Source: an uncultured Gammaproteobacteria bacterium
GTDB lineage: Bacteria; Pseudomonadota; Gammaproteobacteria; JACCXJ01
Assembly: GCA_963764725.1 (NCBI GenBank)
Contig: CAVXTM010000007.1
Location: forward strand, 29,230 to 93,229
DNA: 64,000 bases
Direction: 5' to 3'
Numbering within the stretch: the first letter of the stretch is position 1; the number at the start of each line of letters is the position of its first letter. This document shows, piece by piece, positions 47,867-58,393 of this stretch. The position numbers were made by a program, and so were the translations under genes. The notes beneath the pieces are model-generated. The model saw only the letters and a program-made list of their open reading frames with translations, did no database searches and had not been told where the DNA came from.

Positions 47867-49135
47867 ATGGCGGTTCCTCAGCCCTTAAACATTCAAGCCT
47901 ACATGCAGGACATCGGGCGCCGCGCGCGCGCTGCGTCCTGGGCGATGGCCCGTGCCGCGACCGCGCTTAAAAACACGGCCCTGACCCGCATCGCCGAAAC
48001 CATTGAACGCAACCAGCAAGCGCTGCTCGAGGCCAATGGGCGGGATCTGGCGGCCGGTGCCGGGTTGGACGCCGCATTGCTCGATCGATTAGAGCTCAAC
48101 CCGACGCGAGTGCGCGCGATGGCGTCCGGGTTGCGCGAAATCGCCGCGCTGCCCGATCCCGTGGGCGAGATCACCGGCTTGCAATACCGCCCCTCGGGAA
48201 TTCAGGTCGGGCGCATGCGCGTGCCGCTGGGGGTCATCGGCATCATCTATGAGTCGCGTCCGAACGTGACCGCCGACGTCGCGGGTTTGACTCTGAAATC
48301 CGGGAACGCCGTGATCCTGCGCGGGGGCTCCGAGGCGTTGCACTCAAACCAGGCCATCGCATCCTGCGTCCATGAGGGATTGGCCGTCACGGGACTGCCG
48401 CTTGATGCCGCGCAGCTCGTCGAGACCACGGACCGCGCCGCGGTCGGCGAGCTCCTGCGCATGACGGACTTCGTCGATGTGATCGTGCCGCGCGGGGGTA
48501 AGGGACTCGTCGCGCGCATCAGCGAAGAGGCAAGGGTTCCCGTGATCAAACACCTAGACGGGGTGTGTCACGTCTACATCGACGAGCGCGCCGATCTCGA
48601 CAAGGCAGTCACCGTAGCTATCAACGCCAAGACCCAGCGCTACGGCACCTGCAACGCCATGGAGACCTTGCTGGTGGCCGAATCGGTGGCGCCGGCCGCC
48701 CTCGGGCGTTTAGGCCCGATGTATCGGGAGAAAGGCGTGGAGCTGAGAGGTTGCCGAATCACCTGTCGCTTGTTGCCTTATGCGGTCCCGGCCGCCGAGG
48801 ATGATTGGTATGCGGAGTACCTGGCCCCGATCCTCGCCGTGCGCGTGGTGCGCGATCTCGACCAGGCGATCGACCACATTCGCCGCTACGGCTCCCAGCA
48901 TACCGACGCCATCGTGACCGAAGATCTCACCCGCGCCCGCCGGTTTCTTACCGAGGTCGATTCCAGCTCCGTGATGGTGAACGCCTCGACCCGTTTCGCC
49001 GATGGCTACGAATACGGGCTCGGCGCCGAAGTCGGGATCAGCACTGATAAACTCCACGCCCGCGGGCCGGTGGGCCTCGAAGGACTCACCTCGCAGAAGT
49101 TTATCGTGTTCGGAGACGGCCACGTTCGCAAGTAA
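47867..49135 (+). CDS. proA: gamma-glutamyl phosphate reductase
   Basis: 422 aa, [25 protein letters not shown] motifs. Confidence 0.95.
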
Positions 49136-49141
49136 CTGCGG

Positions 49142-49789
49142 ATGACGGCCGTAGGCATCCTCGGAGGCACCTTCGATCCCATCCATCATGGCCATCTGCG
49201 CTTGGCGCTGGAGATGGCAGCCGCGCTCGAACTCGCGGCCGTACGCTTGCTACCCTTGCATACGCCGCCGCACCGAGAGCCGCCGATGGCCCTCCCCGAG
49301 CTACGCTTGCTGATGATCCTGGCCGCGATCGAGGGTCAAGGAACCCTGCTCGCCGATGACCGGGAGATCAACCGCCAGGGGATCTCGTATACCGTGGATA
49401 CACTGGCCGAGTTCCGCCGCGAGCACGCCGATGTTCCGCTGTGCCTGATCCTCGGGATGGATGCATTCCTGAGTCTGCCCACCTGGCGCCACTGGGAGAG
49501 AATCATCGAACTCGCCCATATTGCCGTTGCGCATCGCCACGACGCCGCTCCCTCGACCCCTGGCGTACTACGCGAATTGTTGGACCGGAACCGAACCGAT
49601 GATCCCAAGGATCTGGATCGGGCTCCCGCCGGGCGCGTCTACTTCGCCGCGATCCCGGCGCTCGAGATCTCCGCCTCCGGCATTCGTAAACGCATCGCCG
49701 CCGGAGATAACGTGCATTTTTTGCTGCCGGAACCGGTGCTGCAATTGATCCACCGCTACGGTCTATACAGAGTCGCTAATTCTCTATGA
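49142..49789 (+). CDS. nadD: nicotinate-nucleotide adenylyltransferase
   Basis: GILGGTFDPIHHGHL and ISASGIRKR motifs. ATGA overlap with rsfS. Confidence 0.92.
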   Translation: MTAVGILGGTFDPIHHGHLRLALEMAAALELAAVRLLPLHTPPHREPPMALPELRLLMILAAIEGQGTLLADDREINRQGISYTVDTLAEFRREHADVPLCLILGMDAFLSLPTWRHWERIIELAHIAVAHRHDAAPSTPGVLRELLDRNRTDDPKDLDRAPAGRVYFAAIPALEISASGIRKRIAAGDNVHFLLPEPVLQLIHRYGLYRVANSL

Positions 49790-50154
49790 ATCCCCAACAA
49801 CTCGCCGATCTCGTAACCACAGCCTTAGCAGACATCAAAGCCTTTGATATCCAGGTGCTCGACGTACACGAGATGACCAGCATCACCGATATCATGGTGA
49901 TCGCCAGCGGCCGCTCGAATCGCCAGATCAAAGCCATGGCCGGCAAGGTCGTAGAGGCGGCGCGCGCCGCGGGAATCAAACCCATTGGAATCGAGGGCGA
50001 GGGCCAAGCCGAATGGGTCTTGGTCGATCTCGGCGATGTGGTCGTACACGCGATGCAACCCGCGACCCGGGACTTCTACCAGTTGGAAAAACTCTGGGGC
50101 CAGGTCGAAGAGAGCTGCAAGCATCTCCTGGACACTCACCACGCGGTTCCCTGA
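49786..50154 (+). CDS. rsfS: ribosome silencing factor
   Basis: Iojap-like: DIKAFDIQVLDV...TDIMVIASGRSNRQIKA...EWVLVDLGDVVVHAM. Confidence 0.9.
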   Translation: MNPQQLADLVTTALADIKAFDIQVLDVHEMTSITDIMVIASGRSNRQIKAMAGKVVEAARAAGIKPIGIEGEGQAEWVLVDLGDVVVHAMQPATRDFYQLEKLWGQVEESCKHLLDTHHAVP

Positions 50155-50186
50155 TCATCCACGCCGTGGGCCGCTGCGGCTTCTCC

Positions 50187-50678
50187 ATGCGCATCCACCT
50201 CCTCTGCGTCACGCATCGCGTACCGGCGTGGGTGAAAGCCGCGTTCGAGGAATACGCGATGCGACTCCCGCCGAGTTGCCGGCTCGGGCTGGTCGAGATC
50301 AGAGCGGCGCGCCGGCCGGCTCACGCCGATCCGGCTCGCGCGCGCGAGGAGGAGGCTTCGCGCTTGCTGAAGGCAGTCCCAGGTAGCGCCGGAATCGTTG
50401 CTCTCGCGGAACACGGCGAAGCCTGGACCACGGCCGAACTCGCGCGGCACCTCGGTTCCTGGACCCAAGCCTCGAACGACGTCGCCCTCTTGATCGGCGG
50501 CGCCGACGGCCTGGCGCGACGTTGCTTGCAACAGGCCAACCACGTGTGGTCGCTGTCGGCGTTAACCTTGCCGCACGCCCTGGTGCGCGTCATCGTCGCC
50601 GAGCAAATCTACCGGGCGTGGAGCCTATTGCAACATCATCCCTACCATCGGGCAGCGTGCGCGCCGCGCTCTATCTGA
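50187..50678 (+). CDS. rlmH: 23S rRNA (pseudouridine1915-N3)-methyltransferase
   Basis: MRIHLLCV...LLIGGADGL...[35 protein letters not shown]. Confidence 0.9.
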
Positions 50679-50896
50679 ACTCCGAATCGCCCCGCCGCCA
50701 GGCGCTGCTCGGGCAGCTTGGCGTTGCATTCGTCACGATTTCGGCGGCCATCGATGAGACCTGGAATGGCGTCGAGACACCTGCGTGCCACGTCGAGCGC
50801 CTGGCGCTCGAAAAAGCCCATGAAACCGCGGAGCTTCTGCGCGCGGCGGGCATCGAGATCTTGGCTCCTGCGCCGCGTGCTCTCGACCGCGACTGA
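50657..50896 (+). pseudogene. maf: Maf-like nucleotide pyrophosphatase, N-terminal ~80 codons only
   Basis: [31 protein letters not shown]...VERLALEKA matches the Maf N-terminus. The frame closes at TGA 50894-50896. A full-length Maf (~190-200 aa) would run into the opposite-strand gene at 51053. Confidence 0.7.
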
Positions 50897-51052
50897 TATC
50901 ACGTCCTGGGGGGGGCACAGCGGGTTTGAACAGATCCTCAGCGAGTAGAGCTCGTTTCTTGCTCCCCCAGCCTTGCACTTTTGCGCGGCACAGGTCCGCT
51001 CGCCGCCCCTAAAATCCAAGTGCCTAAGGCACCTCTACCTTACCACGAAGTT

Positions 51053-51784
51053 TTAGGCGGTTTGCGCGCGTCGGAGATCAATGGCTTTCCGCCATCGTTC
51101 AACGCGTGTTCGTATGGGCGCTGAGCTGGGAGTTAAATAGCCGAGCCGTAACAATTCGCGTATGTCCGCGCGCGTCGGCTTGGCCCTGGTGCGAAACAGA
51201 AAATCGGCAAAGGGAAAGACGACATTGTGGTTTCGACGGGTGTCTTGATGATGGAGGAAATGATTTATCGCTAAGAACCTGAAAAATGCCCAATCCTTGT
51301 AAAACACGCTCCGCGGAATGTGCATCTGACGGTGAAACATGCTCCACAAACGATTGTGTGCCAGTGCTGTGACTAGAAAAATGCCGCCGCCGTAAATCGA
51401 CAGCCAGAATATCGGGGCCCAGAGAGGAAAAGCCGCGACGAGCATCAACACTGTTTCCCTGAGGGGTATAGGCAGGTTTTCCTCGCGTCCGATCTCGTCG
51501 GGCTCATAGTCGAACTCTCTGTACCATCTCGCATGATGACGTATCGCATGGGCTTCGAACGCATCGAGAACATAAGGGAAGGCCCTGTAGACTCGCGCGG
51601 GCAACGGTTTGCCGTGCATTAGGCGCTTGTGAATTTGATGCTCTCCGATGGAAATGTACGTGTAGCTGAAAGCGATCCACCCCAGGCCGGCCAACATGTC
51701 GGGTATCATGATTTCTTGGTGTGATACACGTTGTAAGAATTTATCCGAAGCGCTCATGATAGGAAACGCAATTGATTTCCGCAA
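51053..51784 (-). CDS. fatty-acid hydroxylase / sterol-desaturase superfamily membrane protein
   Basis: Histidine boxes HQIHKRLMH, HAIRHH, HRQMH and HFLHH within a TM protein. Confidence 0.6.
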   Translation of the reverse strand: MRKSIAFPIMSASDKFLQRVSHQEIMIPDMLAGLGWIAFSYTYISIGEHQIHKRLMHGKPLPARVYRAFPYVLDAFEAHAIRHHARWYREFDYEPDEIGREENLPIPLRETVLMLVAAFPLWAPIFWLSIYGGGIFLVTALAHNRLWSMFHRQMHIPRSVFYKDWAFFRFLAINHFLHHQDTRRNHNVVFPFADFLFRTRAKPTRADIRELLRLGYLTPSSAPIRTRVERWRKAIDLRRAQTA

Positions 51785-51908
51785 CGAGTAGCGGCCGGAT
51801 TAAACAGACGTCAGCTGGATTTTCTGATGTTGGCAGACGGCATGGATGCATTGGCTTCCCAGCGCCAAGGAACGCTAAACAACCACCGGCTTGGTGTGAT
51901 GATAATTG

Positions 51909-54900
51909 TCACGATAGTTGGGTATGCTTAGGGAGCTTCATATAGTATTTATTCAGGCTCGTATAATAGGCAGCTGCATCCGGGAACCTTGAAGCCGCGT
52001 GGATTTTTGAATCGACCATCGACAACACAACTCCACTCATGCGGCCTCCTGCGCTTGCGATCATCTTTATTCCATACTTAACGATTTCTCGGCGTGTCGA
52101 GGCCCATTTTGCTATGTACACGGTGGTATCGACTTTTGTTGCAAGAACGCGTGAATCCGTGACCGCCATCACCGGCGGCGAATCTAGGATTACTAAGTCG
52201 AATTTGCTTGCCAACTGGTCGAGTAAAACGTCTAACCGCTCGGAATTGATATAGTAATTCGGGTTTGTGACAGGGCGTCCGGCACATATCACGCAGGCGC
52301 CAGATGCTTCGTCTGTCCGGATTGCGTCGTCAAAAGATACTTCGTCGTCCAAGATCTCGATAAGACCCGGTTCGCGTTTGATGCCTAGGGTACTGTGAAT
52401 TTTCGGAGTTCTAAGATCGGCGTCGACAATAAGTACCTGTTGCCCAGTGAGTGCCCACAGTCTCGCTAAGCACAAAGCGATTGTTGTCTTACCTTCCAGT
52501 GGCAATGACGAAGCGATAAGAACGGTTCTTGGCGGCACGCCTAGCGGACTGAAACGAATACTCGTGTAAAGCGCGTGAAACGACTCGGTGATCGCCGATC
52601 GGGGCTGTTTTAGAATATATGATTCTAGTTTTCTTCCAATATTGCCAAATCCACCGAACTTGGGGATCGAACCAAGAGCTGGCAATCCGACGGCACGTTC
52701 AATCTGTTCGCTACTCCGAAAGCCTGGGTCCAGCTCCTCGATGACGTATACAACAGTGAACGCAATAAACAGGGAAACGACGAAGGCCAGGGCAAGGATT
52801 AATTTTTTTCTCGGATGAGTCGGTTTGATGGGCACATCTGCATAAGAGATGACATGCGCATCAGCCTGCCGTGCCCCAAGATATTCTTGCGAGTTCGATT
52901 CCTTTGTACGCGTCAAGAAGGTCTCTAAAAGCACCTTATTCGCATCGGCTTCCGCTTGCAATGATCGTAATTGAACATCGCTTTCGTTGGACTTGGCCAC
53001 CTGCTTCTCAAGCTCTCTTAGTCGTGACTGAAACGCATATTCGCGGGCGCTGGCAATATCAGCCTCGTGCTGCAATCCTCGAGAAATCTTACCGATTTCC
53101 GCCTCTATCTTGGTTTGCAAATCGCGCCTTTCAGCTTGTAGCTGCAGCATGGTAGGATGTCTTTCCCCGAGATCCTCGGAAAGCTCGGCAGACTTGCGCG
53201 CTAGCTCTGTTTCTTGTCCTCTGAGCGCCTGGATCAAACCAGATCCGAGTACTTCTGCAATAGAATCGGCGCTACCGTCCGCTGAAGTTAACCCTCGTCT
53301 TTGCTCTCTGAGGCGCGCCTGCGCGGCCGCTCTCTCCGCTCGTGCCTGGACTAACTGTGTGTTTAATTCAGAGATTTCCTGCGCCACCAAAGTCCCGTCG
53401 CGGCCTTGGATTAAACCGGCCTCCCGGCGGTATTTTTCTACTGCCTTCTCGGAGTCCTCAACTTGCTTACGTACCGCGGCAATACGCTCGTCCAGCCATT
53501 CGGTCGTTTGTCGGGCCGCCCCGAGCTTGTTTTCGATCCGCGCCCCAATATATAGGTCGGCAACAGCGTTTGCTATATTGGAAGCCTTTTCGGCGCCCTC
53601 TGACGCAAATGCCACAGTGATTACCCGCGATTGCCCCTTCGGAGCGACGCTGAGTTGTCCTAGAAAGGTATCAATGACCGCTGCTCGCTCACGCGCTTGA
53701 CGTTGCGCATCGGACTCCGGCTCTTCTTCCGGAGAGCTAAACACCTGTGCCACTGTTTTCTTCAGTTGCTCGATAAACTCGGCAAATTCTGTTTTCGATT
53801 GCAATGCGGCGTTAAATTCTGGGTCTTGCACTAGTTTCAGCTGATCTACGGCTTTGCCCGCCATGCTACGTCCGAGAAGGACCTCGATCTCGCTGGCAAT
53901 GGTCTGGGAATCCATAGGCAGATTCGGCATCACTTCCGGGATGCCGATGTTTACGCGTTCCTGGCCGTCAACCATGATCGCCGCTTCAGCCTCGTATCGT
54001 GGAGTCAACATGAATAAAACCACGGTCGTTAACGCCAGCAATGCGCCTACGACACCCATCAGTATCCATCTTCGCCGCCGTAGTGTAGAAAAAACGTCTG
54101 CTAACGAGATTGACGAGCTCGCGCTAACAAGTGCCTCACCAGAGGCCGCTTCATTGGACATCATCAAAGGCCGCCCGGGGTTATTGATTAACGACGATCC
54201 GGGATTGTTTATGGTAGTAATACCGCTCATGTCCTTATCTTCGCGCCGGCGCTTTACATGTAGCTCGCCGCTTTTGACCCGTCGGCGACGCCAGGCCGAA
54301 ATTTGTGCAGTGGAAATGCCTTCCCGATCGAAGATCTCCAGGACTTGAGTAACATTATTGCAACGCCCTACCTGCTTAAGAATCCGGCGTTCACGATCGG
54401 CATCGAAATAGCGACGCTCGTATTCCCCCTCCGGCGCGTTATCGTCTTGCGGGAAGTCTTCTATTGAGTCTCCAAGGGCTTGGAGCAGGGAATGCAGCTC
54501 GTTAGCCTCTGGTCTAACAGCTTGGCGCTGGATACGTCTTATTGTGTCGGCAAGAGATCGGAGGAGGGAACGAGATGCCGTAGCCACGGGCGCATTATCC
54601 GGTCGCGGAGTATGCTCTATCGATTCGGTCACAAAGGCATCCGTGATCTCATGCATAAACGCGTCTATGATCGAACTCTTTGAACCAACCTCTTTAGGTC
54701 TGCCATGCCGGCGCCGCCAATGCCCGACTTGGGCAGTTAAAACACCTTGTTTATCAAGTAGTTCCACGATCTGACCCGCATTCGTGCAGCGCTCAATCTC
54801 CGCCAGAAGGCGGTGTTCGTTCTTCAGGTTGGAATAGGGCAGCTCGTGTTCGGCGGGGTCTTCATTCTCGGGCGTGCCATCCTCTTGCGGGGAATCTTCG

Positions 54901-55088
54901 ATTGATTCCGTAAGAAATCGGCGCAGGGAACGAAGTTCCTCAGCCTCACGTGGGTTATCGTCTTCCGGGATCCGTGCTATTGATTTGATAATGGCTCGGA
55001 GCAGAGAACGGTGTTCTTTAGCCTTTGGCAGGTCGTCTTCCTGCAAGCTATGTCTTGTTGATTCCGTCATAACTGCCTCTATTCTCAA
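51909..55088 (-). CDS. Wzc/EpsG-type polysaccharide co-polymerase tyrosine autokinase with a ~308-aa repeated N-terminal extension
   Basis: From aa ~309 the architecture is typical Wzc: RRRRW plus TM1, a Wzz-like periplasmic/coiled-coil region, TM2, Walker A LPLEGKT, A' VLIVDADLR, B LVILDSPP and a Tyr-containing tail AAYYTSLNKYYMK. Upstream and in frame lie two ~125-aa modules. Confidence 0.85.
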   Translation of the reverse strand: MRIEAVMTESTRHSLQEDDLPKAKEHRSLLRAIIKSIARIPEDDNPREAEELRSLRRFLTESIEDSPQEDGTPENEDPAEHELPYSNLKNEHRLLAEIERCTNAGQIVELLDKQGVLTAQVGHWRRRHGRPKEVGSKSSIIDAFMHEITDAFVTESIEHTPRPDNAPVATASRSLLRSLADTIRRIQRQAVRPEANELHSLLQALGDSIEDFPQDDNAPEGEYERRYFDADRERRILKQVGRCNNVTQVLEIFDREGISTAQISAWRRRRVKSGELHVKRRREDKDMSGITTINNPGSSLINNPGRPLMMSNEAASGEALVSASSSISLADVFSTLRRRRWILMGVVGALLALTTVVLFMLTPRYEAEAAIMVDGQERVNIGIPEVMPNLPMDSQTIASEIEVLLGRSMAGKAVDQLKLVQDPEFNAALQSKTEFAEFIEQLKKTVAQVFSSPEEEPESDAQRQARERAAVIDTFLGQLSVAPKGQSRVITVAFASEGAEKASNIANAVADLYIGARIENKLGAARQTTEWLDERIAAVRKQVEDSEKAVEKYRREAGLIQGRDGTLVAQEISELNTQLVQARAERAAAQARLREQRRGLTSADGSADSIAEVLGSGLIQALRGQETELARKSAELSEDLGERHPTMLQLQAERRDLQTKIEAEIGKISRGLQHEADIASAREYAFQSRLRELEKQVAKSNESDVQLRSLQAEADANKVLLETFLTRTKESNSQEYLGARQADAHVISYADVPIKPTHPRKKLILALAFVVSLFIAFTVVYVIEELDPGFRSSEQIERAVGLPALGSIPKFGGFGNIGRKLESYILKQPRSAITESFHALYTSIRFSPLGVPPRTVLIASSLPLEGKTTIALCLARLWALTGQQVLIVDADLRTPKIHSTLGIKREPGLIEILDDEVSFDDAIRTDEASGACVICAGRPVTNPNYYINSERLDVLLDQLASKFDLVILDSPPVMAVTDSRVLATKVDTTVYIAKWASTRREIVKYGIKMIASAGGRMSGVVLSMVDSKIHAASRFPDAAAYYTSLNKYYMKLPKHTQLS

Positions 55089-55803
55089 ACTTTTAGTGCT
55101 ATCCCGCTACCCTTATCACGAATTGATTCCGAAGGCCTTGCTTCTTTCCAATCATCAATTTCCTCTTGTAGTGGGCATGCGTCCGGGTAATACCCTCGCA
55201 AAAAAGTATATACGCCTTTTCATGCGTACGATTCATATGATTCCACTCGAGGCGCCCCCATCGCCAAGGGCAAAGGATTGCAGACTGCTGTGTGCGTTTG
55301 TGCCTTCCATGTTCTTACCCCATGTCCGTGCGAGGCGCTGACGGCCGTTTTTCAATGGGTGCGGAGCGAAAAGATAAACCTTCTTGCCCGCGTTGCAAGG
55401 ACAGCAGATCCACTATCCTAAGGTATTAAACATACTAGAGCCTGATCGGGTTCAGATGTCAATAGTGGACTACAAATACCTAACGCAATAAGCTGTAACC
55501 GTTAGCACTTACGGCCAATCCGGCGTGCGTTAACGGCGCGAAAACGATACCGGGGCCGATTTATTCGGAGAAGCATCGCTTCAATAGGGAGTATAGTTAC
55601 CGAATAGAGTACTATTAGAGATGGAGACTTTGAGCCTACAAGATCGAAAATTCGAATTTGAAAGCGTACTAAGAAAACAAAAAACGGGAAGTAGAACACA
55701 AAAAAATACTAGATCCCTGAAAGGCTTGTACGGTCAAACGTGCCACGTCGAAGAATGCTAGCCGAGAATATGGCGGGTTGAGGATCATCAGGAGGGACGC
55801 ACT

Positions 55804-57246
55804 GTGAATAGTGTTCAGTACATGGATAACCTAAGGGGTTCTCGTGGATTGATTCGTCCGGATCAATCCACGTTGAACGGGATGCTCCGCGTGATAGATG
55901 GAGCTATTATCGCCGGGAGCTTATGGGCTGCCTGTTCGATTTATGGGGTGCTTTGGCCGGACCAATATAATTGGGTGGCCATTTGCGCAGTAGCCTTCTT
56001 TTTATGGTTCTCAGAAAATAACGGCCTCTATAGCTCTCGGCGTGGCATTCTCTTACGTGAAGAGACGAGCCAGGTTTTAAAGGCATGGCTGCATTCCGTC
56101 GTGGGCCTATTGCTCCTGGCCTATCTCACGCATAAATCAACAGAGTACTCCCGGCGAATAATATTAACCTGGGTTGCCCTCGTGCCTGTATGCCTAGTCG
56201 GTATACGTTGTAGTCTGCGTATTCTCCTACGCTACGTTCGCGCACTAGGATACAACTCGCGCAAGGTGGCGATCGTAGGATTAAGTGAATTAGCGGGTCG
56301 GGTGGCCCATGTAATTCATAGCAGGCCAGATCTCGGGATGGAATTGTCCGGGTTTTACGACGATAGGCAGCCGAATAATGGTAGAACGCTCGGTATTAAC
56401 ACAAACCTAGCTCCTATTCGGGGTGGTTTCGATAACTTACTGCAGGATGCACGTACAGGGCTAGTAGACGTAATCTACGTTGTTTCGCCGTTACGTGCCG
56501 AACAGCGGGTAAAGGATCTGATCTTTAAGCTCGCAGACACTACAGCATCGGTTTACGTGGTGCCTGACTTTTTTACGTTCGATCTGTTGCGCGCTCGTTG
56601 GATGAGCCTGGATGGAATCCCGGCTGTGAGCATCCATGACACGCCGTTCGATGGCGTAGACGGCGTATTTAAGCGCATGGAAGATATTATTGTCGCTAGC
56701 ACTTGTTTAGTCGCCGTTTCGATTCCAATGGTGTTTATCGCTATAGGCATTAGGCTTTCCTCTCCAGGCCCGATCCTTTTTAAGCAACGCCGTTATGGCA
56801 TCAATGGGGAAAAGATAGACGTTTTGAAGTTTCGAACAATGACCGTCTGCGAGAACGGAGCGAGCGTAAATCAGGCCAAAGAAAACGATCCGCGCGTCAC
56901 CAAGTTGGGTCGCTTCTTGCGCAGAACGTCACTGGATGAGTTGCCGCAATTCATTAACGTCTTGCAAGGTCAAATGTCCATCGTCGGCCCACGTCCACAT
57001 GCCGTAGCCCACAATGAAGAATACCGCTCCTTGCTGCAAGGTTACATGTTACGGCACAAAGTAAAACCTGGCATCACCGGTTGGGCACAGATTAACGGCC
57101 TGCGTGGCGAGACAGATACCATCGATAAAATGCAAATGCGACTACAATTTGATCTTGACTATATTCGATCGTGGTCACCGTATTTCGATCTGAAAATTAT
57201 CCTTACTACGATGTTCATAGTCTTTCTCGGAAAGAACGCCTATTAA
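55804..57246 (+). CDS. undecaprenyl-phosphate hexose-1-phosphate transferase (WcaJ/WbaP-type initiating sugar transferase)
   Basis: N-terminal TM bundle plus a C-terminal bacterial sugar transferase domain (KFRTM, DPRVTKLGRFLRRTSLDELPQFINVLQGQMSIVGPRP). Confidence 0.9.
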   Translation: MNSVQYMDNLRGSRGLIRPDQSTLNGMLRVIDGAIIAGSLWAACSIYGVLWPDQYNWVAICAVAFFLWFSENNGLYSSRRGILLREETSQVLKAWLHSVVGLLLLAYLTHKSTEYSRRIILTWVALVPVCLVGIRCSLRILLRYVRALGYNSRKVAIVGLSELAGRVAHVIHSRPDLGMELSGFYDDRQPNNGRTLGINTNLAPIRGGFDNLLQDARTGLVDVIYVVSPLRAEQRVKDLIFKLADTTASVYVVPDFFTFDLLRARWMSLDGIPAVSIHDTPFDGVDGVFKRMEDIIVASTCLVAVSIPMVFIAIGIRLSSPGPILFKQRRYGINGEKIDVLKFRTMTVCENGASVNQAKENDPRVTKLGRFLRRTSLDELPQFINVLQGQMSIVGPRPHAVAHNEEYRSLLQGYMLRHKVKPGITGWAQINGLRGETDTIDKMQMRLQFDLDYIRSWSPYFDLKIILTTMFIVFLGKNAY

Positions 57247-57343
57247 TACCCCTCCGTAGTGAAGATTGCCGCAGAGATCCGTGTTGCAGCCGTATATCGG
57301 AAACATTAACGCTGGGCCTTGAAATCGTCCAGGGAGTTGAAAT

Positions 57344-58393
57344 ATGCGTGTTTTAGTGACTGGACATTGTGGCTACATTGGCAGCGTGCTCGTACCGATG
57401 CTTCTCTGTGAAGGGCATGAGGTCGTCGGACTAGACAGCGACTTATTCGAACGCTGCACCTTTACGGGAACGCTAGCCGATGTACCGCATGTAAAAAAAG
57501 ACATCCGCGATGTCAATAAAACCGATCTCGTCGGGTTCGATGCGATTATTCACCTAGCCGGATTATCCAATGATCCCCTGGGAGATTACAAACCAAGTTT
57601 AACGGAGGAAATTAATGAGAAGGCATCCATACGCCTCGCCACACTCGCGAAAGAGGTCGGCGTTCGTAGATTCCTGTTTGCTTCGTCTTGCAGTAACTAC
57701 GGTGCCGCCGGTAGCGATTTTCTAACGGAAACAGCTCCGTTCAACCCTGTAACACCTTATGGCCTATCCAAAGTTAACGTGGAAAAAGCCGTCTCTAGGC
57801 TTGCGGATAACACCTTCAGTCCCACCTTCTTGCGTGCCTCTACGGCCTATGGTCTCTCGCCCCGCTTACGCTTCGACCTCGTCTTAAATAATCTAATCGC
57901 CTGGGCATTTACTTCAGGTCGCGTATATATGAAAAGCGATGGAACACCTTGGCGGCCCATCGTACACGTGGAGGACATAGCACGGGCATATGCGAGTATC
58001 TTAACTGCGCCGCGCGGGCTGATACACAACGAGGCATTCAATATAGGCGCGACGTCGGAGAATTATCAAATTTGCGACCTTGCAGAAATCGTAAAGGATA
58101 TAGTGCCGAATTGCCGTATCGAATATGCGCCCGATGCGAGTCCCGATTTGCGTTGCTACCGAGTCGATTGCACTAAGATTGCAAAAACTTTACACGGTTT
58201 TAAACCTCAATGGACAGCCCGCCGAGGGGCCGAGCAATTGTATCTGGCATATAACAATGTAGGCTTGACGATCGAAGATTTTGAAGGGGAGAAATTCAAG
58301 CGCATTTCTCACGTAACAAAATTAATCGCGGACGGTATGCTGGATGACTCGTTGCGTCCACGGTCCGCCCAAGAAACCGCTGCTATGGCCTAA
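57344..58393 (+). CDS. NAD-dependent epimerase/dehydratase (extended SDR)
   Basis: VLVTGHCGYIGS Rossmann motif and the YxxxK catalytic pair in PYGLSKVNVEK. Confidence 0.85.
   Translation: MRVLVTGHCGYIGSVLVPMLLCEGHEVVGLDSDLFERCTFTGTLADVPHVKKDIRDVNKTDLVGFDAIIHLAGLSNDPLGDYKPSLTEEINEKASIRLATLAKEVGVRRFLFASSCSNYGAAGSDFLTETAPFNPVTPYGLSKVNVEKAVSRLADNTFSPTFLRASTAYGLSPRLRFDLVLNNLIAWAFTSGRVYMKSDGTPWRPIVHVEDIARAYASILTAPRGLIHNEAFNIGATSENYQICDLAEIVKDIVPNCRIEYAPDASPDLRCYRVDCTKIAKTLHGFKPQWTARRGAEQLYLAYNNVGLTIEDFEGEKFKRISHVTKLIADGMLDDSLRPRSAQETAAMA

What the first reader, a model, noticed from the sequence alone, without database searches (positions are those of the whole stretch)
54165..55088. The Wzc-type tyrosine kinase carries a tandemly duplicated ~308-aa cytoplasmic N-terminal extension with transposase-like HTH segments
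Seen: a typical Wzc N-terminus (MMSNEAASGE...STLRRRRW plus TM1) begins only at codon 309 (ATG 54164). Upstream and in frame, with no stop, lie two similar modules (about aa 8-133 and about aa 150-275). Each has three copies of an acidic S-I-E-x-x-P-x-x-D-x-x-P-like motif: TESTRHSLQEDDLP, KSIARIPEDDNP, TESIEDSPQEDGTP / TESIEHTPRPDNAP, DTIRRIQRQAVRP, GDSIEDFPQDDNAP. Each then ends in a segment such as RRILKQVGRCNNVTQVLEIFDREGISTAQISAWRRRRVKSGE (module 1: HRLLAEIERCTNAGQIVELLDKQGVLTAQVGHWRRRHGRPKE). A short INNPG duplication follows. Established: Wzc N-termini are normally about 30 cytoplasmic residues. The positive-inside RRRR places the extension in the cytoplasm. Inference: from memory, the terminal segments resemble the IS3 OrfA-type helix-turn-helix (...gis.stly.WRkk...). 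The kinase may therefore carry DNA-binding modules, coupling polymer export or phosphorylation directly to transcription. Alternatively, an upstream gene has fused in frame, and the internal ATG at 54164 yields a conventional isoform. I do not know of this architecture being described.
Basis: partly seen in the sequence, partly recalled or inferred. Interest (0 to 1): 0.65.

Follow-up and report, generated by a model that had tools for sequence, protein, structure and literature searches.

The report
Polysaccharide-export kinase with captured transposase DNA-binding modules
In a genus of uncultured cave and soil methane-oxidising bacteria, the membrane tyrosine kinase that controls polysaccharide export carries a real, conserved 302-residue cytoplasmic front end built from two copies of a module ending in a DNA-binding-type fold borrowed from insertion-sequence transposases, so the export machine may bind DNA itself; that function is untested.

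Summary
The gene (51909-55070, minus strand, 1053 aa from ATG 55070) is a Wzc/ExoP-type PCP-2a tyrosine autokinase. Its conventional N-terminus begins only at residue 303.

Residues 1-302 form two modules that are 40% identical (E 4e-31). Each module has three acidic helix-plus-S-I-E-D-x-P-Q-D-D units followed by a basic three-helix segment.

The extension behaves as coding sequence:
- 17 distinct orthologous sequences keep it open.
- All indels are whole codons.
- dN/dS is 0.39, against 0.29 for the core. The second HTH scores 0.26.
- Conservation stops exactly at a conserved AGAGG-N5-ATG.
- Metatranscriptome contigs cover it.

The terminal segments are homologous to IS3/IS66 OrfA/TnpA proteins (Pfam HTH_Tnp_1). 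HMMER gives E down to 1.6e-6 against 1.84 billion proteins, and hhalign gives 97.5% probability. They fall below Pfam's own threshold.

The architecture is confined to one genus (USC-gamma / wb1-P19 methanotrophs). It forms a single cluster among 1.84 billion representatives, and I found no description of it.

DNA binding is an inference only. The topology would be ToxR-like, possibly acting on the 715-nt divergent promoter region. A protein-docking role is the main rival.

Verdict: a new variant of a known kind, of moderate interest.

The parts
51909..55070 (-). Whole gene: 1053-aa PCP-2a / BY-kinase (Wzc/ExoP/'GumC family') with an N-terminal extension. The stop codon is 51909-51911.
   Evidence: ORF. 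Pfam Wzz 326-417, GNVR 709-782, AAA_31 866-983 in TTG-start numbering. TIGR01007 scores 113.9 against a cut-off of 108.05.
55076..55080 (-). Shine-Dalgarno AGAGG, five bases before ATG 55070-55068.
   Evidence: Read from the sequence. AGAGG or GGAGG in 12 of the 14 upstream sequences aligned and TGAGG in two, with the ATG in all (seven loci). Conservation with whole-codon indels starts here; upstream there are large indels.
54846..55070 (-). Module 1, acidic helical repeats (aa 1-75; net charge -9).
   Evidence: Unit shuffle tests and charge. AF2 helices 11-32 and 40-58 with pLDDT 75-79. dN/dS 0.35.
54693..54845 (-). Module 1, OrfA-type HTH segment (aa 76-126: ELPYSNLKNEHRLLAEIERCTNAGQIVELLDKQGVLTAQVGHWRRRHG).
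   Evidence: AF2 gives three helices, 85-93, 98-108 and 112-122, with pLDDT 65-81. Aligns without gaps to OrfA proteins. Relaxed constraint, dN/dS 0.69.
54565..54695 (-). Linker plus first unit of module 2 (KEVGSKSSIIDAFMHEITDAFVTESIEHTPRPDNAPVATASRS). It includes one of the best-conserved stretches of the extension and is shared at DNA level with an unrelated BY-kinase gene.
   Evidence: Conservation in 15-residue blocks is 0.92-0.96 across this stretch, peaking at 0.96 for aa 136-150; only the module-2 HTH block aa 226-240 is higher, at 0.98. 94.7% nt identity over 131 nt, without gaps, to L004:3261-3391, the 5' end of P0009. The same junction appears in RNA contig X26.
54423..54632 (-). Module 2, acidic helical repeats (aa 147-216; net charge -6).
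   Evidence: dN/dS 0.41-0.42.
54267..54422 (-). Module 2, OrfA-type HTH segment (aa 217-268: YERRYFDADRERRILKQVGRCNNVTQVLEIFDREGISTAQISAWRRRRVKSG).
   Evidence: NCBIfam IS66_ISRel24_TnpA E 0.0017. hhalign 97.5%, E 7e-12, to a profile of OrfA proteins. 35% identity over 51 aa without gaps to an IS-remnant OrfA in a same-genus genome, E 2e-9. AF2 with a deeper alignment gives three helices at pLDDT ~80. dN/dS 0.26.
54165..54266 (-). Basic tail (ELHVKRRRE) and the NNPG-containing linker leading to the conventional N-terminus (aa 269-302).
   Evidence: Read from the sequence. Predicted disordered. dN/dS 0.36.
53997..54164 (-). Conventional Wzc-type cytoplasmic N-terminus (MMSNEAASGE...RRRRW) and TM1 (aa 303-358).
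   Evidence: Kyte-Doolittle maximum at residue 336. Paralogues in related genomes have only about 27-63 residues from their nearest in-frame Met to TM1.
55089..55803 (.). 715-nt divergent intergenic region shared with the initiating sugar transferase gene (55804-57246, +). Candidate target of the HTH modules. Contains a conserved TTGACA (55462-55457), a 19-nt spacer, TAGTAT (55437-55432), and a ~190-nt conserved block at 55290-55475.
   Evidence: Alignment of 14 upstream regions. Pfam Bac_transf for the neighbouring gene. RNA contigs cover the region. Its role as a target is inference only.

Best explanation
**What it is.** A single translated protein: a Wzc/ExoP-type inner-membrane polysaccharide co-polymerase and tyrosine autokinase. 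In one genus of USC-gamma methanotrophs it has gained a 302-residue cytoplasmic N-terminal domain.

**How the domain arose.** It came from an old tandem duplication of one module. Each module has three acidic amphipathic-helix units (...RSLLxxLxxSIEDxPQDDxxP) followed by a basic three-helix HTH. The HTH descends from the N-terminal DNA-binding domain of IS3/IS66-type OrfA/TnpA proteins, that is, a domesticated transposase HTH. No transposase, no inverted repeats and no leucine zipper remain.

**Shown:**
- the architecture;
- an open frame and purifying selection;
- homology of the HTH segments to OrfA/TnpA proteins;
- restriction to one genus;
- transcription of the extension.

**Inferred mechanism, about 45% likely.** The extension sits on the cytoplasmic face next to TM1, so the protein has the topology of a ToxR/CadC-like membrane-tethered regulator.
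- The HTHs bind DNA, mainly the better-conserved second one (net charge +8 with its tail).
- The most plausible target is the conserved 715-nt region between this gene and the divergent initiating glycosyltransferase operon.
- Wzc-type kinases cycle between octamers and dissociated, phosphorylated forms (my own knowledge of E. coli Wzc). That cycling would change the local valency of the HTHs and so couple export state to transcription.
- The acidic repeats could mask the basic HTHs or dock a partner protein.
For: **Kinase identity.** Pfam and NCBIfam hits.

**Modules.** 40% identity, E 4e-31. Nested units are significant against shuffles.

**Translation.**
- 17 distinct sequences from genomes and metagenomes are all open over 1040-1054 aa.
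- Indels in the extension are whole codons. Variable sites by codon position are 53/51/99.
- dN/dS is 0.39 for the extension against 0.29 for the core; the module-2 HTH scores 0.26.
- A cave-metagenome contig aligns without gaps over 51806-55131 but with gaps upstream.
- A conserved SD and ATG mark the conservation boundary.
- RNA contigs cover 54432-55234 and 54548-54768.

**HTH homology.**
- In the HMMER search of 1.84 billion representatives, all 29 non-orthologous hits are small proteins matching profile positions ~65-130 (E 1.6e-6 to 1e-3). 24 of the 29 are PF01527.
- NCBIfam assigns them to IS66 TnpA, IS3 transposase or the IS2 repressor.
- hhalign gives 97.5% probability.
- The gap-free alignment keeps an invariant C, G and W-R.
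- A same-genus IS remnant has an OrfA next to an rve_3 fragment.
- AF2 predicts a three-helix fold.

**Charge pattern.** Acidic repeats and basic HTHs.

**Uniqueness.**
Against: - Neither module reaches any Pfam threshold on its own.
- Foldseek against the PDB found nothing with E below 2.6. HTH and homeodomain folds lead the list, but not significantly.
- No sequence match to a solved structure.
- The module-1 HTH evolves under relaxed constraint, 0.69.
- The conserved Arg pair at the end of helix 2 of OrfA proteins (LLRREG) reads FDREG in module 2 and LDKQG in module 1. This could weaken DNA contacts.
- No repeated operator-like motif or IS-type inverted repeat stood out in the intergenic region.
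- The segment shared at 94.7% nucleotide identity with an unrelated BY-kinase gene, and containing the best-conserved repeat-region block (aa 136-150, 0.96), is a repeat unit rather than an HTH. This hints that peptide docking may matter as much as DNA binding.
- Whether an internal start also yields a conventional isoform is unknown.
Confidence: 0.55

Rival explanations
1. The extension is translated and selected, but it works through protein contacts, not DNA. The acidic helix-plus-SIEDxPQDD units would be docking or autoregulatory peptides, for example for the kinase ring, the cognate phosphatase or a glycosyltransferase. The HTH-derived helices would be only a structural scaffold that has lost DNA binding.
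For: - One of the most conserved stretches of the extension is a repeat unit with its linker, not an HTH: conservation peaks at 0.96 for aa 136-150, and only the module-2 HTH block aa 226-240 is higher, at 0.98.
- The same 131 nt are found in frame at the very N-terminus of an unrelated BY-kinase that has no HTH. That gene is transcribed elsewhere.
- The module-1 HTH is relaxed, dN/dS 0.69.
- The Arg pair of OrfA helix 2 is replaced by D/K-containing residues.
- Six copies of one short motif look like multivalent docking.
Against: - The module-2 HTH is the most strongly constrained part of the extension (dN/dS 0.26; conservation 0.94-0.98) and keeps the W-R-R-R basic tail.
- The ancestral family binds DNA, as IS OrfA/TnpA proteins and the IS2 repressor do (own knowledge).
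- The shared 131-nt stretch is a recent transfer at 94.7% nt identity. Its presence therefore says little about selection.
Confidence: 0.3
2. The main functional product is a conventional Wzc that initiates at ATG 54167/54164. The long form would be a minor isoform, and the upstream frame would mainly serve translational or mRNA-level regulation.
For: - A Met codon is kept at this position in all orthologues.
- A weak GGGCGG lies upstream of it.
- No protein-level data exist.
Against: - Purifying selection acts on the amino-acid sequence of the upstream 302 codons, at almost the same level as the core.
- All indels are whole codons.
- A strong conserved SD lies at ATG 55070, and none comparable lies at 54164.
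- Third-codon wobble runs straight through the supposed internal ribosome-binding site.
Confidence: 0.1
3. Artefact: the extension is not part of the gene. It would be a missed stop or frameshift, or two separate genes, with module 1 as a stand-alone OrfA-like protein and module 2 joined to Wzc.
For: Some database entries are split: P0040 and P0043 (module 1 alone, frameshifted at the linker) and P0039 (module 2 plus the start of the core).
Against: - P0039, the split entry that reaches the core, carries a further frameshift inside the conserved periplasmic core. The split entries P0039-P0041 and P0043 are held only in ENA metagenome assemblies, which points to assembly error.
- 17 independent distinct sequences are uninterrupted, including seven species representatives of the genus and nine JGI contigs.
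- Cave metagenome contigs show no indel in the coding part.
Confidence: 0.03

Closest known systems
Wzc / Etk / ExoP-type PCP-2a bacterial tyrosine autokinases (BY-kinases)
   Same: - Residues 303-1053 have the full layout: a short cytoplasmic N-terminus with an RRRRW motif, TM1, a Wzz/GNVR periplasmic coiled-coil domain, TM2, and a P-loop kinase.
- The kinase has Walker A (LEGKT), A' (VDADLR) and B (LVILDSPP) motifs and C-terminal tyrosines.
- It sits in a small sugar-nucleotide and initiating-transferase cluster.
   Different: - A 302-aa structured cytoplasmic extension precedes the usual N-terminus. Paralogues in related genomes have only about 27-63 residues before TM1, counted from the nearest in-frame Met.
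- The Tyr cluster is small: YY...YY, four Tyr in the last 22 residues.
- Scores fall below the equivalog cut-offs for Wzc and ExoP. NCBI names the orthologues 'GumC family protein'.
IS3 / IS66 OrfA-TnpA N-terminal HTH (Pfam PF01527 HTH_Tnp_1; NCBIfam IS66_ISRel24_TnpA; IS2 repressor TnpA)
   Same: - A ~52-residue three-helix segment with the pattern RRxF..x..RIL...xRC...xQ...L.REG...xQ...WRRxR.
- It aligns without gaps at 30-35% identity.
   Different: - It does not reach the Pfam gathering score.
- There is no downstream leucine zipper, frameshift site, OrfB/DDE domain or terminal inverted repeats.
- It is duplicated, preceded by acidic repeats, and fused to a membrane protein. It is a domesticated domain, not a mobile element.
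ToxR / CadC / TcpP-type membrane-tethered one-component transcription regulators
   Same: The order is the same: an N-terminal cytoplasmic DNA-binding-type domain, one TM helix, then a periplasmic domain. This allows transcription control from the membrane. That order is shown here; the function is inferred.
   Different: - The DNA-binding domain of that family is a winged helix of the OmpR type. Here it is a transposase-type tri-helical HTH, present twice.
- The protein continues into a second TM helix and a kinase.
- No DNA binding has been demonstrated.
Kinases with a functional link to DNA or DNA-binding proteins: B. subtilis YabT (PMC3708118), S. pneumoniae CpsD (PMC4574921), PtkA phosphorylating FatR in its HTH (PMC3814354)
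   Same: - YabT's abstract describes a putative transmembrane Ser/Thr kinase with a DNA-binding motif that is essential for its activation.
- CpsD, by its paper's title and abstract, is a BY-kinase whose autophosphorylation connects capsule synthesis with the cell cycle.
- FatR-type repressors lose DNA binding when tyrosine-phosphorylated in their HTH domain.
- Together these show that kinase-DNA coupling at or near the membrane has precedents.
   Different: In those cases the DNA-binding element either is not a fused HTH domain of a BY-kinase or lies on a separate protein. None involves a transposase-derived HTH fused to the PCP-2a N-terminus.

Membership tests
PCP-2a / BY-kinase (Wzc-type) | Wzz (PF02706) and GNVR (PF13807) periplasmic co-polymerase domain between two TM helices | tested here: met
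   Wzz E 5e-13 (49.6 bits against a cut-off of 25.5). GNVR E 4.6e-7 (30.1 against 27.7). TM1 shows as the hydropathy peak at residue 336. TM2 (LILALAFVVSLFIAFTVVYVI) was read from the sequence.
PCP-2a / BY-kinase (Wzc-type) | C-terminal P-loop autokinase domain with Walker A, A' and B motifs | tested here: met
   TIGR01007 tyrosine autokinase domain scores 113.9 bits against a cut-off of 108.05. AAA_31 scores 35.9 against 27. The motifs LEGKT, VDADLR and LVILDSPP were read.
PCP-2a / BY-kinase (Wzc-type) | C-terminal tyrosine cluster as the autophosphorylation site | tested here: inconclusive
   There are four Tyr in the last 22 residues (AAAYYTSLNKYYMKLPKHTQLS), conserved in orthologues. This is sparser than in Wzc or in P0009 (YGYGTYAYAYAYKR). 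Phosphorylation is not testable here.
PCP-2a / BY-kinase (Wzc-type) | Equivalog-level identity with E. coli Wzc/Etk or the ExoP family | tested here: not met
   NF008568 Wzc scores 164 bits against a cut-off of 1068. TIGR01005 scores 339.5 against 411.7. The gene is a member of the broad family but not an orthologue of a characterised protein.
HTH_Tnp_1 (PF01527) transposase OrfA/TnpA HTH | Match to the family model above Pfam's gathering score | tested here: not met
   No Pfam hit at E <= 1 for the extension or for either module. The only direct model hit is NCBIfam IS66_ISRel24_TnpA at E 0.0017, 19 bits against a cut-off of 74.
HTH_Tnp_1 (PF01527) transposase OrfA/TnpA HTH | Demonstrable homology to family members | tested here: met
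   The module profile finds 29 small proteins at library-wide E 1.6e-6 to 1e-3, and 24 of them match PF01527. hhalign gives 97.5%, E 7e-12. That profile was built from those same hits, so the value is optimistic. Pairwise E is 2e-9 to a same-genus IS-remnant OrfA.
HTH_Tnp_1 (PF01527) transposase OrfA/TnpA HTH | Tri-helical HTH fold | tested here: inconclusive
   AF2 predicts three helices in both segments, with pLDDT 65-81 and ~80. Foldseek against the PDB gives a best E of 2.6. The top hits are Lrp/AsnC, homeodomain, MarR and DeoR DNA-binding domains, none significant.
HTH_Tnp_1 (PF01527) transposase OrfA/TnpA HTH | Part of an insertion sequence (adjacent DDE/rve transposase, terminal inverted repeats) | tested here: not met
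   No transposase ORF or IS-type inverted repeats lie next to the gene. The position and sequence are syntenic and stable across the genus. The domain is therefore domesticated.
ToxR-like membrane-tethered transcription regulators | N-terminal cytoplasmic DNA-binding domain, then a TM helix, then a periplasmic domain | tested here: met
   Cytoplasmic placement follows from the known PCP-2a topology, in which the kinase domain is cytoplasmic and there are two TM helices.
ToxR-like membrane-tethered transcription regulators | OmpR-type winged-helix DNA-binding domain and demonstrated promoter binding | tested here: not met
   There is no Trans_reg_C or other winged-helix hit. DNA binding is not testable with these tools. 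This is a resemblance in how the protein may work, not family membership.

The most novel reading that the evidence does not exclude
The polysaccharide co-polymerase/tyrosine kinase is itself a membrane-anchored transcription factor. Its two domesticated transposase HTHs would bind the shared promoter region of the exopolysaccharide cluster. Binding would be switched by the kinase's oligomeric and phosphorylation cycle, with the acidic repeats acting as an intramolecular DNA mimic or gate. Polymer export state would then feed back directly on gene expression with no separate regulator.
Probability: 0.3. Interest if true: 0.75.

Novelty: new variant of a known kind. Interest (0 to 1): 0.55.

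Why it matters
**For BY-kinase biology.** BY-kinases are known to control polymer assembly and to phosphorylate separate regulators. A BY-kinase that carries its own DNA-binding modules would be a new and very direct way to couple envelope polysaccharide export to transcription.

**For domain evolution.** It is also a clean bacterial case of a transposase DNA-binding domain being domesticated, duplicated and fused to a housekeeping-type membrane machine.

**For the hosts.** The carriers are USC-gamma / wb1-P19 atmospheric methane oxidisers. They are uncultured and ecologically important in caves and dry soils. Matrix production is plausibly relevant to their life on rock and desert surfaces.

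**If the modules do not bind DNA.** The finding still defines a conserved, lineage-specific cytoplasmic domain of an EPS kinase, with a repeated peptide motif that has also moved into another kinase gene.

Tried and rejected
- **Pfam** on the extension and on each module gave no hit at E <= 1.
- **Profile searches against PDB sequences** gave only chance matches.
- **Foldseek against the PDB** with the HTH model gave nothing significant. The full-extension AF2 model is too weak (mean pLDDT 50.4) to search with.
- **Rfam** on 49000-58000 gave no hit.
- **An RfaH ops/JUMPStart element (GGCGGTAG)** in the long leader is absent from 55089-55803.
- **Folding of the conserved leader block** is not better than shuffles, z -0.27.
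- **The sigma-70 scan** found no site in 55000-55900. The conserved TTGACA/TAGTAT pair has a 19-nt spacer, outside the scan's 16-18 nt limit.
- **Paralogues of the module in the same genome:** none.
- **Single-module or stand-alone ancestral forms:** none found in 185,579 species genomes or in JGI metagenomes. The only short forms are frameshifted assemblies.
- **A transcription start site** could not be located. The runs are held only as contigs, without direction or read ends.
- **Programmed frameshifting at the linker**, as in IS3 elements, was considered and rejected. There is no slippery heptamer, and the split entries differ by an inserted base inside error-laden contigs.

Full report
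**1. What is there**

The minus strand carries one long ORF, 51909..55088.
- Its C-terminal 751 residues are a complete Wzc/ExoP-type PCP-2a tyrosine autokinase. In TTG-start numbering, Pfam places Wzz at 326-417, GNVR at 709-782 and AAA_31 at 866-983. The TIGR01007 autokinase domain scores above its cut-off.
- The usual short cytoplasmic N-terminus (MMSNEAASGE...RRRRW) and TM1 begin at ATG 54167/54164. The frame stays open for a further 302 codons upstream of that.
- The real start is ATG 55070, not the TTG at 55088 that a mechanical ORF list gives. The ATG and an AGAGG five bases upstream of it are conserved in all orthologues. The TTG reads TTC in most of them. Upstream of ~55093 the alignment breaks into large indels.
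- The gene lies in a lower-GC island (0.51 against 0.61 in the flank). The island sits between rsfS-rlmH-maf and a small sugar-nucleotide cluster. The gene is divergent from an initiating Bac_transf sugar transferase across 715 nt.

**2. Anatomy of the extension**

- Residues 1-146 and 147-302 are two copies of one module, 40% identical over 143 residues with one 4-residue gap, E 4e-31.
- Each module begins with three related units: an amphipathic helix followed by an acidic proline-containing tail. The consensus is roughly RSLLxxLxxSIEDxPQDDxxPE. Unit pairs within a module score z 5.4-8.5 against 2000 shuffles.
- These parts are acidic, with net charge -9 and -6.
- Each module ends in a basic segment of about 52 residues, with net charge +3 in module 1 and +8 in module 2 including its KRRR tail.
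- No part of residues 1-302 is hydrophobic enough to cross the membrane. The kinase domain of PCP-2a proteins is cytoplasmic and there are two TM helices, so the extension must be cytoplasmic.
- AF2 on the whole extension is weak overall (mean pLDDT 50). It does give a helical hairpin for the repeats of module 1 (pLDDT 75-79) and three short helices for each terminal segment.
- With a deeper alignment, the module-2 segment folds as three helices (20-32, 36-46, 50-63) at pLDDT about 80.

**3. Is it translated?**

Seven species representatives of the same genus have the extension, with no stop, in open frames of 1058-1075 aa. Two genus members lack it; both are under 90% complete. Five public genomes and nine JGI metagenome contigs add further full-length copies. 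After removing duplicates there are 17 distinct sequences, all open over 1040-1054 aa.

In the seven-locus alignment all indels in the extension are whole codons (1, 3, 4 or 9), and variable sites by codon position are 53/51/99.

| Segment | Pooled dN/dS |
|---|---|
| Whole extension | 0.39 |
| Core | 0.29 |
| Module-2 HTH | 0.26 |
| Acidic repeats | 0.35-0.42 |
| Module-1 HTH | 0.69 |
| Conventional Wzc cytoplasmic N-terminus | 0.57 |

- Amino-acid conservation of the extension (0.923) equals that of the core (0.929).
- A 13-kb cave-metagenome contig aligns without gaps from 51806 to 55131 and then needs gaps and skips in the intergenic region.
- Metatranscriptome contigs cover 54432-54717, 54823-55234 and 54548-54768, some at 99.5% identity. 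The extension and at least 164 nt of leader are therefore on RNA.
- Split database entries exist (module 1 alone; module 2 plus the start of the core). The entry that reaches the core, P0039, has a second frameshift inside the conserved core, and most of the split entries are held only in ENA metagenome assemblies. I treat them as assembly errors.
- I cannot exclude that ATG 54164 also initiates a conventional isoform. No SD-like conservation beyond coding wobble is seen there.

**4. What the terminal segments are**

- A profile of the two modules was run with HMMER against 1.84 billion representative proteins. It found one cluster with the whole module (the orthologues) and 29 further proteins at E 1.6e-6 to 1e-3. 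All 29 are 80-212 aa long and match only profile positions ~65-130.
- 24 of the 29 match Pfam HTH_Tnp_1, PF01527. NCBIfam places them with IS66 TnpA, IS3 transposases and the IS2 repressor TnpA.
- The extension itself gives a weak direct hit to IS66_ISRel24_TnpA, E 0.0017.
- A profile-profile comparison gives 97.5% probability, E 7e-12, over 52 columns. The target profile was built from the HMMER hits, so that value is optimistic. The library-wide HMMER E-values stand on their own.
- The alignment has no gaps and shares an invariant Cys, Gly and Trp-Arg.
- A genome of the same genus carries an IS remnant whose OrfA is 35% identical to the module-2 segment over 51 residues (E 2e-9). That OrfA lies next to an rve_3 integrase fragment.
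- Formal Pfam membership is not met. Foldseek against the PDB is not significant, although the best-ranked folds are HTH or homeodomain DNA-binding domains.
- Nothing else of an IS is present: no OrfB, no inverted repeats, no leucine zipper. The locus is syntenic across the genus. This is a domesticated domain.

**5. Distribution**

- The window's genome has no second copy of the module. At E <= 1e-20 it has only this one BY-kinase homologue.
- The extension is absent from the six genomes of the two sister genera and from 46 other genomes of the class.
- The closest core homologues in the sister genera are only 25-29% identical. Their N-termini before TM1 are short: about 27-63 residues from the nearest in-frame Met, against 334 here.
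- Record titles identify the genus as the 'Chromatiales bacterium USCg_Taylor' group, with MAGs from the Frasassi and Lehman Caves. This is the USC-gamma / wb1-P19 methanotroph genus described in bioRxiv 10.1101/2024.08.23.608578.
- Full-text searches found no description of a BY-kinase or polysaccharide co-polymerase with an HTH or other N-terminal extension of this kind.

**6. How it most likely works**

*Shown:* a selected, transcribed cytoplasmic domain made of acidic repeats and two transposase-derived tri-helical segments, fused in front of TM1 of an EPS kinase.

*Inferred:*
- The ancestral family binds DNA sequence-specifically. IS OrfA/TnpA proteins bind IS ends, and the IS2 protein is a repressor (own knowledge of these families).
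- The second HTH is as constrained as the periplasmic domain.
- The order of parts matches ToxR/CadC-type regulators.

My best reading is a membrane-tethered DNA-binding function, most plausibly on the conserved divergent promoter region. That region holds a fully conserved TTGACA, a 19-nt spacer and TAGTAT at 55462-55432, inside a ~190-nt conserved block. The oligomeric and phosphorylation cycle known for Wzc would modulate binding. The acidic repeats would gate or dock. I put this at about 45% for the functional part and about 90% for the structural and evolutionary part.

The main rival (30%) is a protein-docking role.
- One of the most conserved stretches is a repeat unit plus linker.
- Exactly these 131 nt recur, 94.7% identical and in frame, as the N-terminus of an otherwise unrelated BY-kinase that has no HTH. 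That gene is a singleton in the databases. Its junction is independently seen in a soil metatranscriptome contig.
- The module-1 HTH is relaxed, and the OrfA Arg pair at the end of helix 2 is not kept.

**7. Verdict**

It is untested for function.
- It is a new variant of a known kind: a BY-kinase with a domesticated, duplicated transposase HTH domain. It is confined to one uncultured genus.
- Interest is moderate (0.55). It would be clearly higher if DNA binding were demonstrated.

Noticed in passing
window 54565-54695; L004:3261-3391: A 131-nt stretch (the linker plus the first unit of module 2) is 94.7% identical, without gaps and in frame, to the very 5' end of an otherwise unrelated BY-kinase gene (P0009, 32% aa identity elsewhere). 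That gene lies on a Logan contig from another organism. The same break point, at 54695, appears in a soil metatranscriptome contig (X26). P0009 is a singleton and has no orthologue in the genus. This looks like a recent short gene conversion or transfer between two kinase genes.
   Followed up: partly
window 55290-55475 (minus strand): A ~190-nt non-coding block is almost invariant across 14 orthologous loci, while its surroundings are full of indels. It begins with TTGACA (55462-55457), a 19-nt spacer and TAGTAT (55437-55432). That would give the kinase gene a leader of about 355 nt. There is no Rfam hit, and the predicted fold is no better than shuffles.
   Followed up: partly
window ~55093 (between leader and SD); L005, L008, L009, L014 and others: Most of the aligned orthologous loci (10 of 14) carry extra sequence of about 45-95 nt just upstream of the SD; it is missing in the window and three other loci. 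In its longer forms it contains an inverted repeat (GGCCACTGAATAGTGA...). It could be a small mobile element or a regulatory hairpin.
   Followed up: no
window 51053-51784 (minus strand): The 243-aa ORF directly downstream of the kinase has no Pfam hit. It shows histidine-box motifs (HQIHKRLMH, HHARWY, HRQMH, HFLHHQD) typical of membrane fatty-acid hydroxylases or desaturases. An ORF of 218-234 aa occupies the same position in three orthologous loci.
   Followed up: no
L005:4658-6031: In one orthologous contig a DDE_Tnp_1_4 transposase gene sits immediately downstream of the kinase gene, replacing the usual neighbour. The island is a target for IS insertion.
   Followed up: no
window 50522-50896 versus L003, L006, L008, L009: The maf gene at the island boundary is short in the window (124-aa ORF) but 205-242 aa in orthologous loci.
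   Followed up: no
G000 whole genome; L023 and L028: The window's genome has only this extended BY-kinase homologue at E <= 1e-20. Two other species of the genus also carry a second, distant Wzc-like gene (25-26% identity) with a conventional ~41-residue N-terminus.
   Followed up: partly
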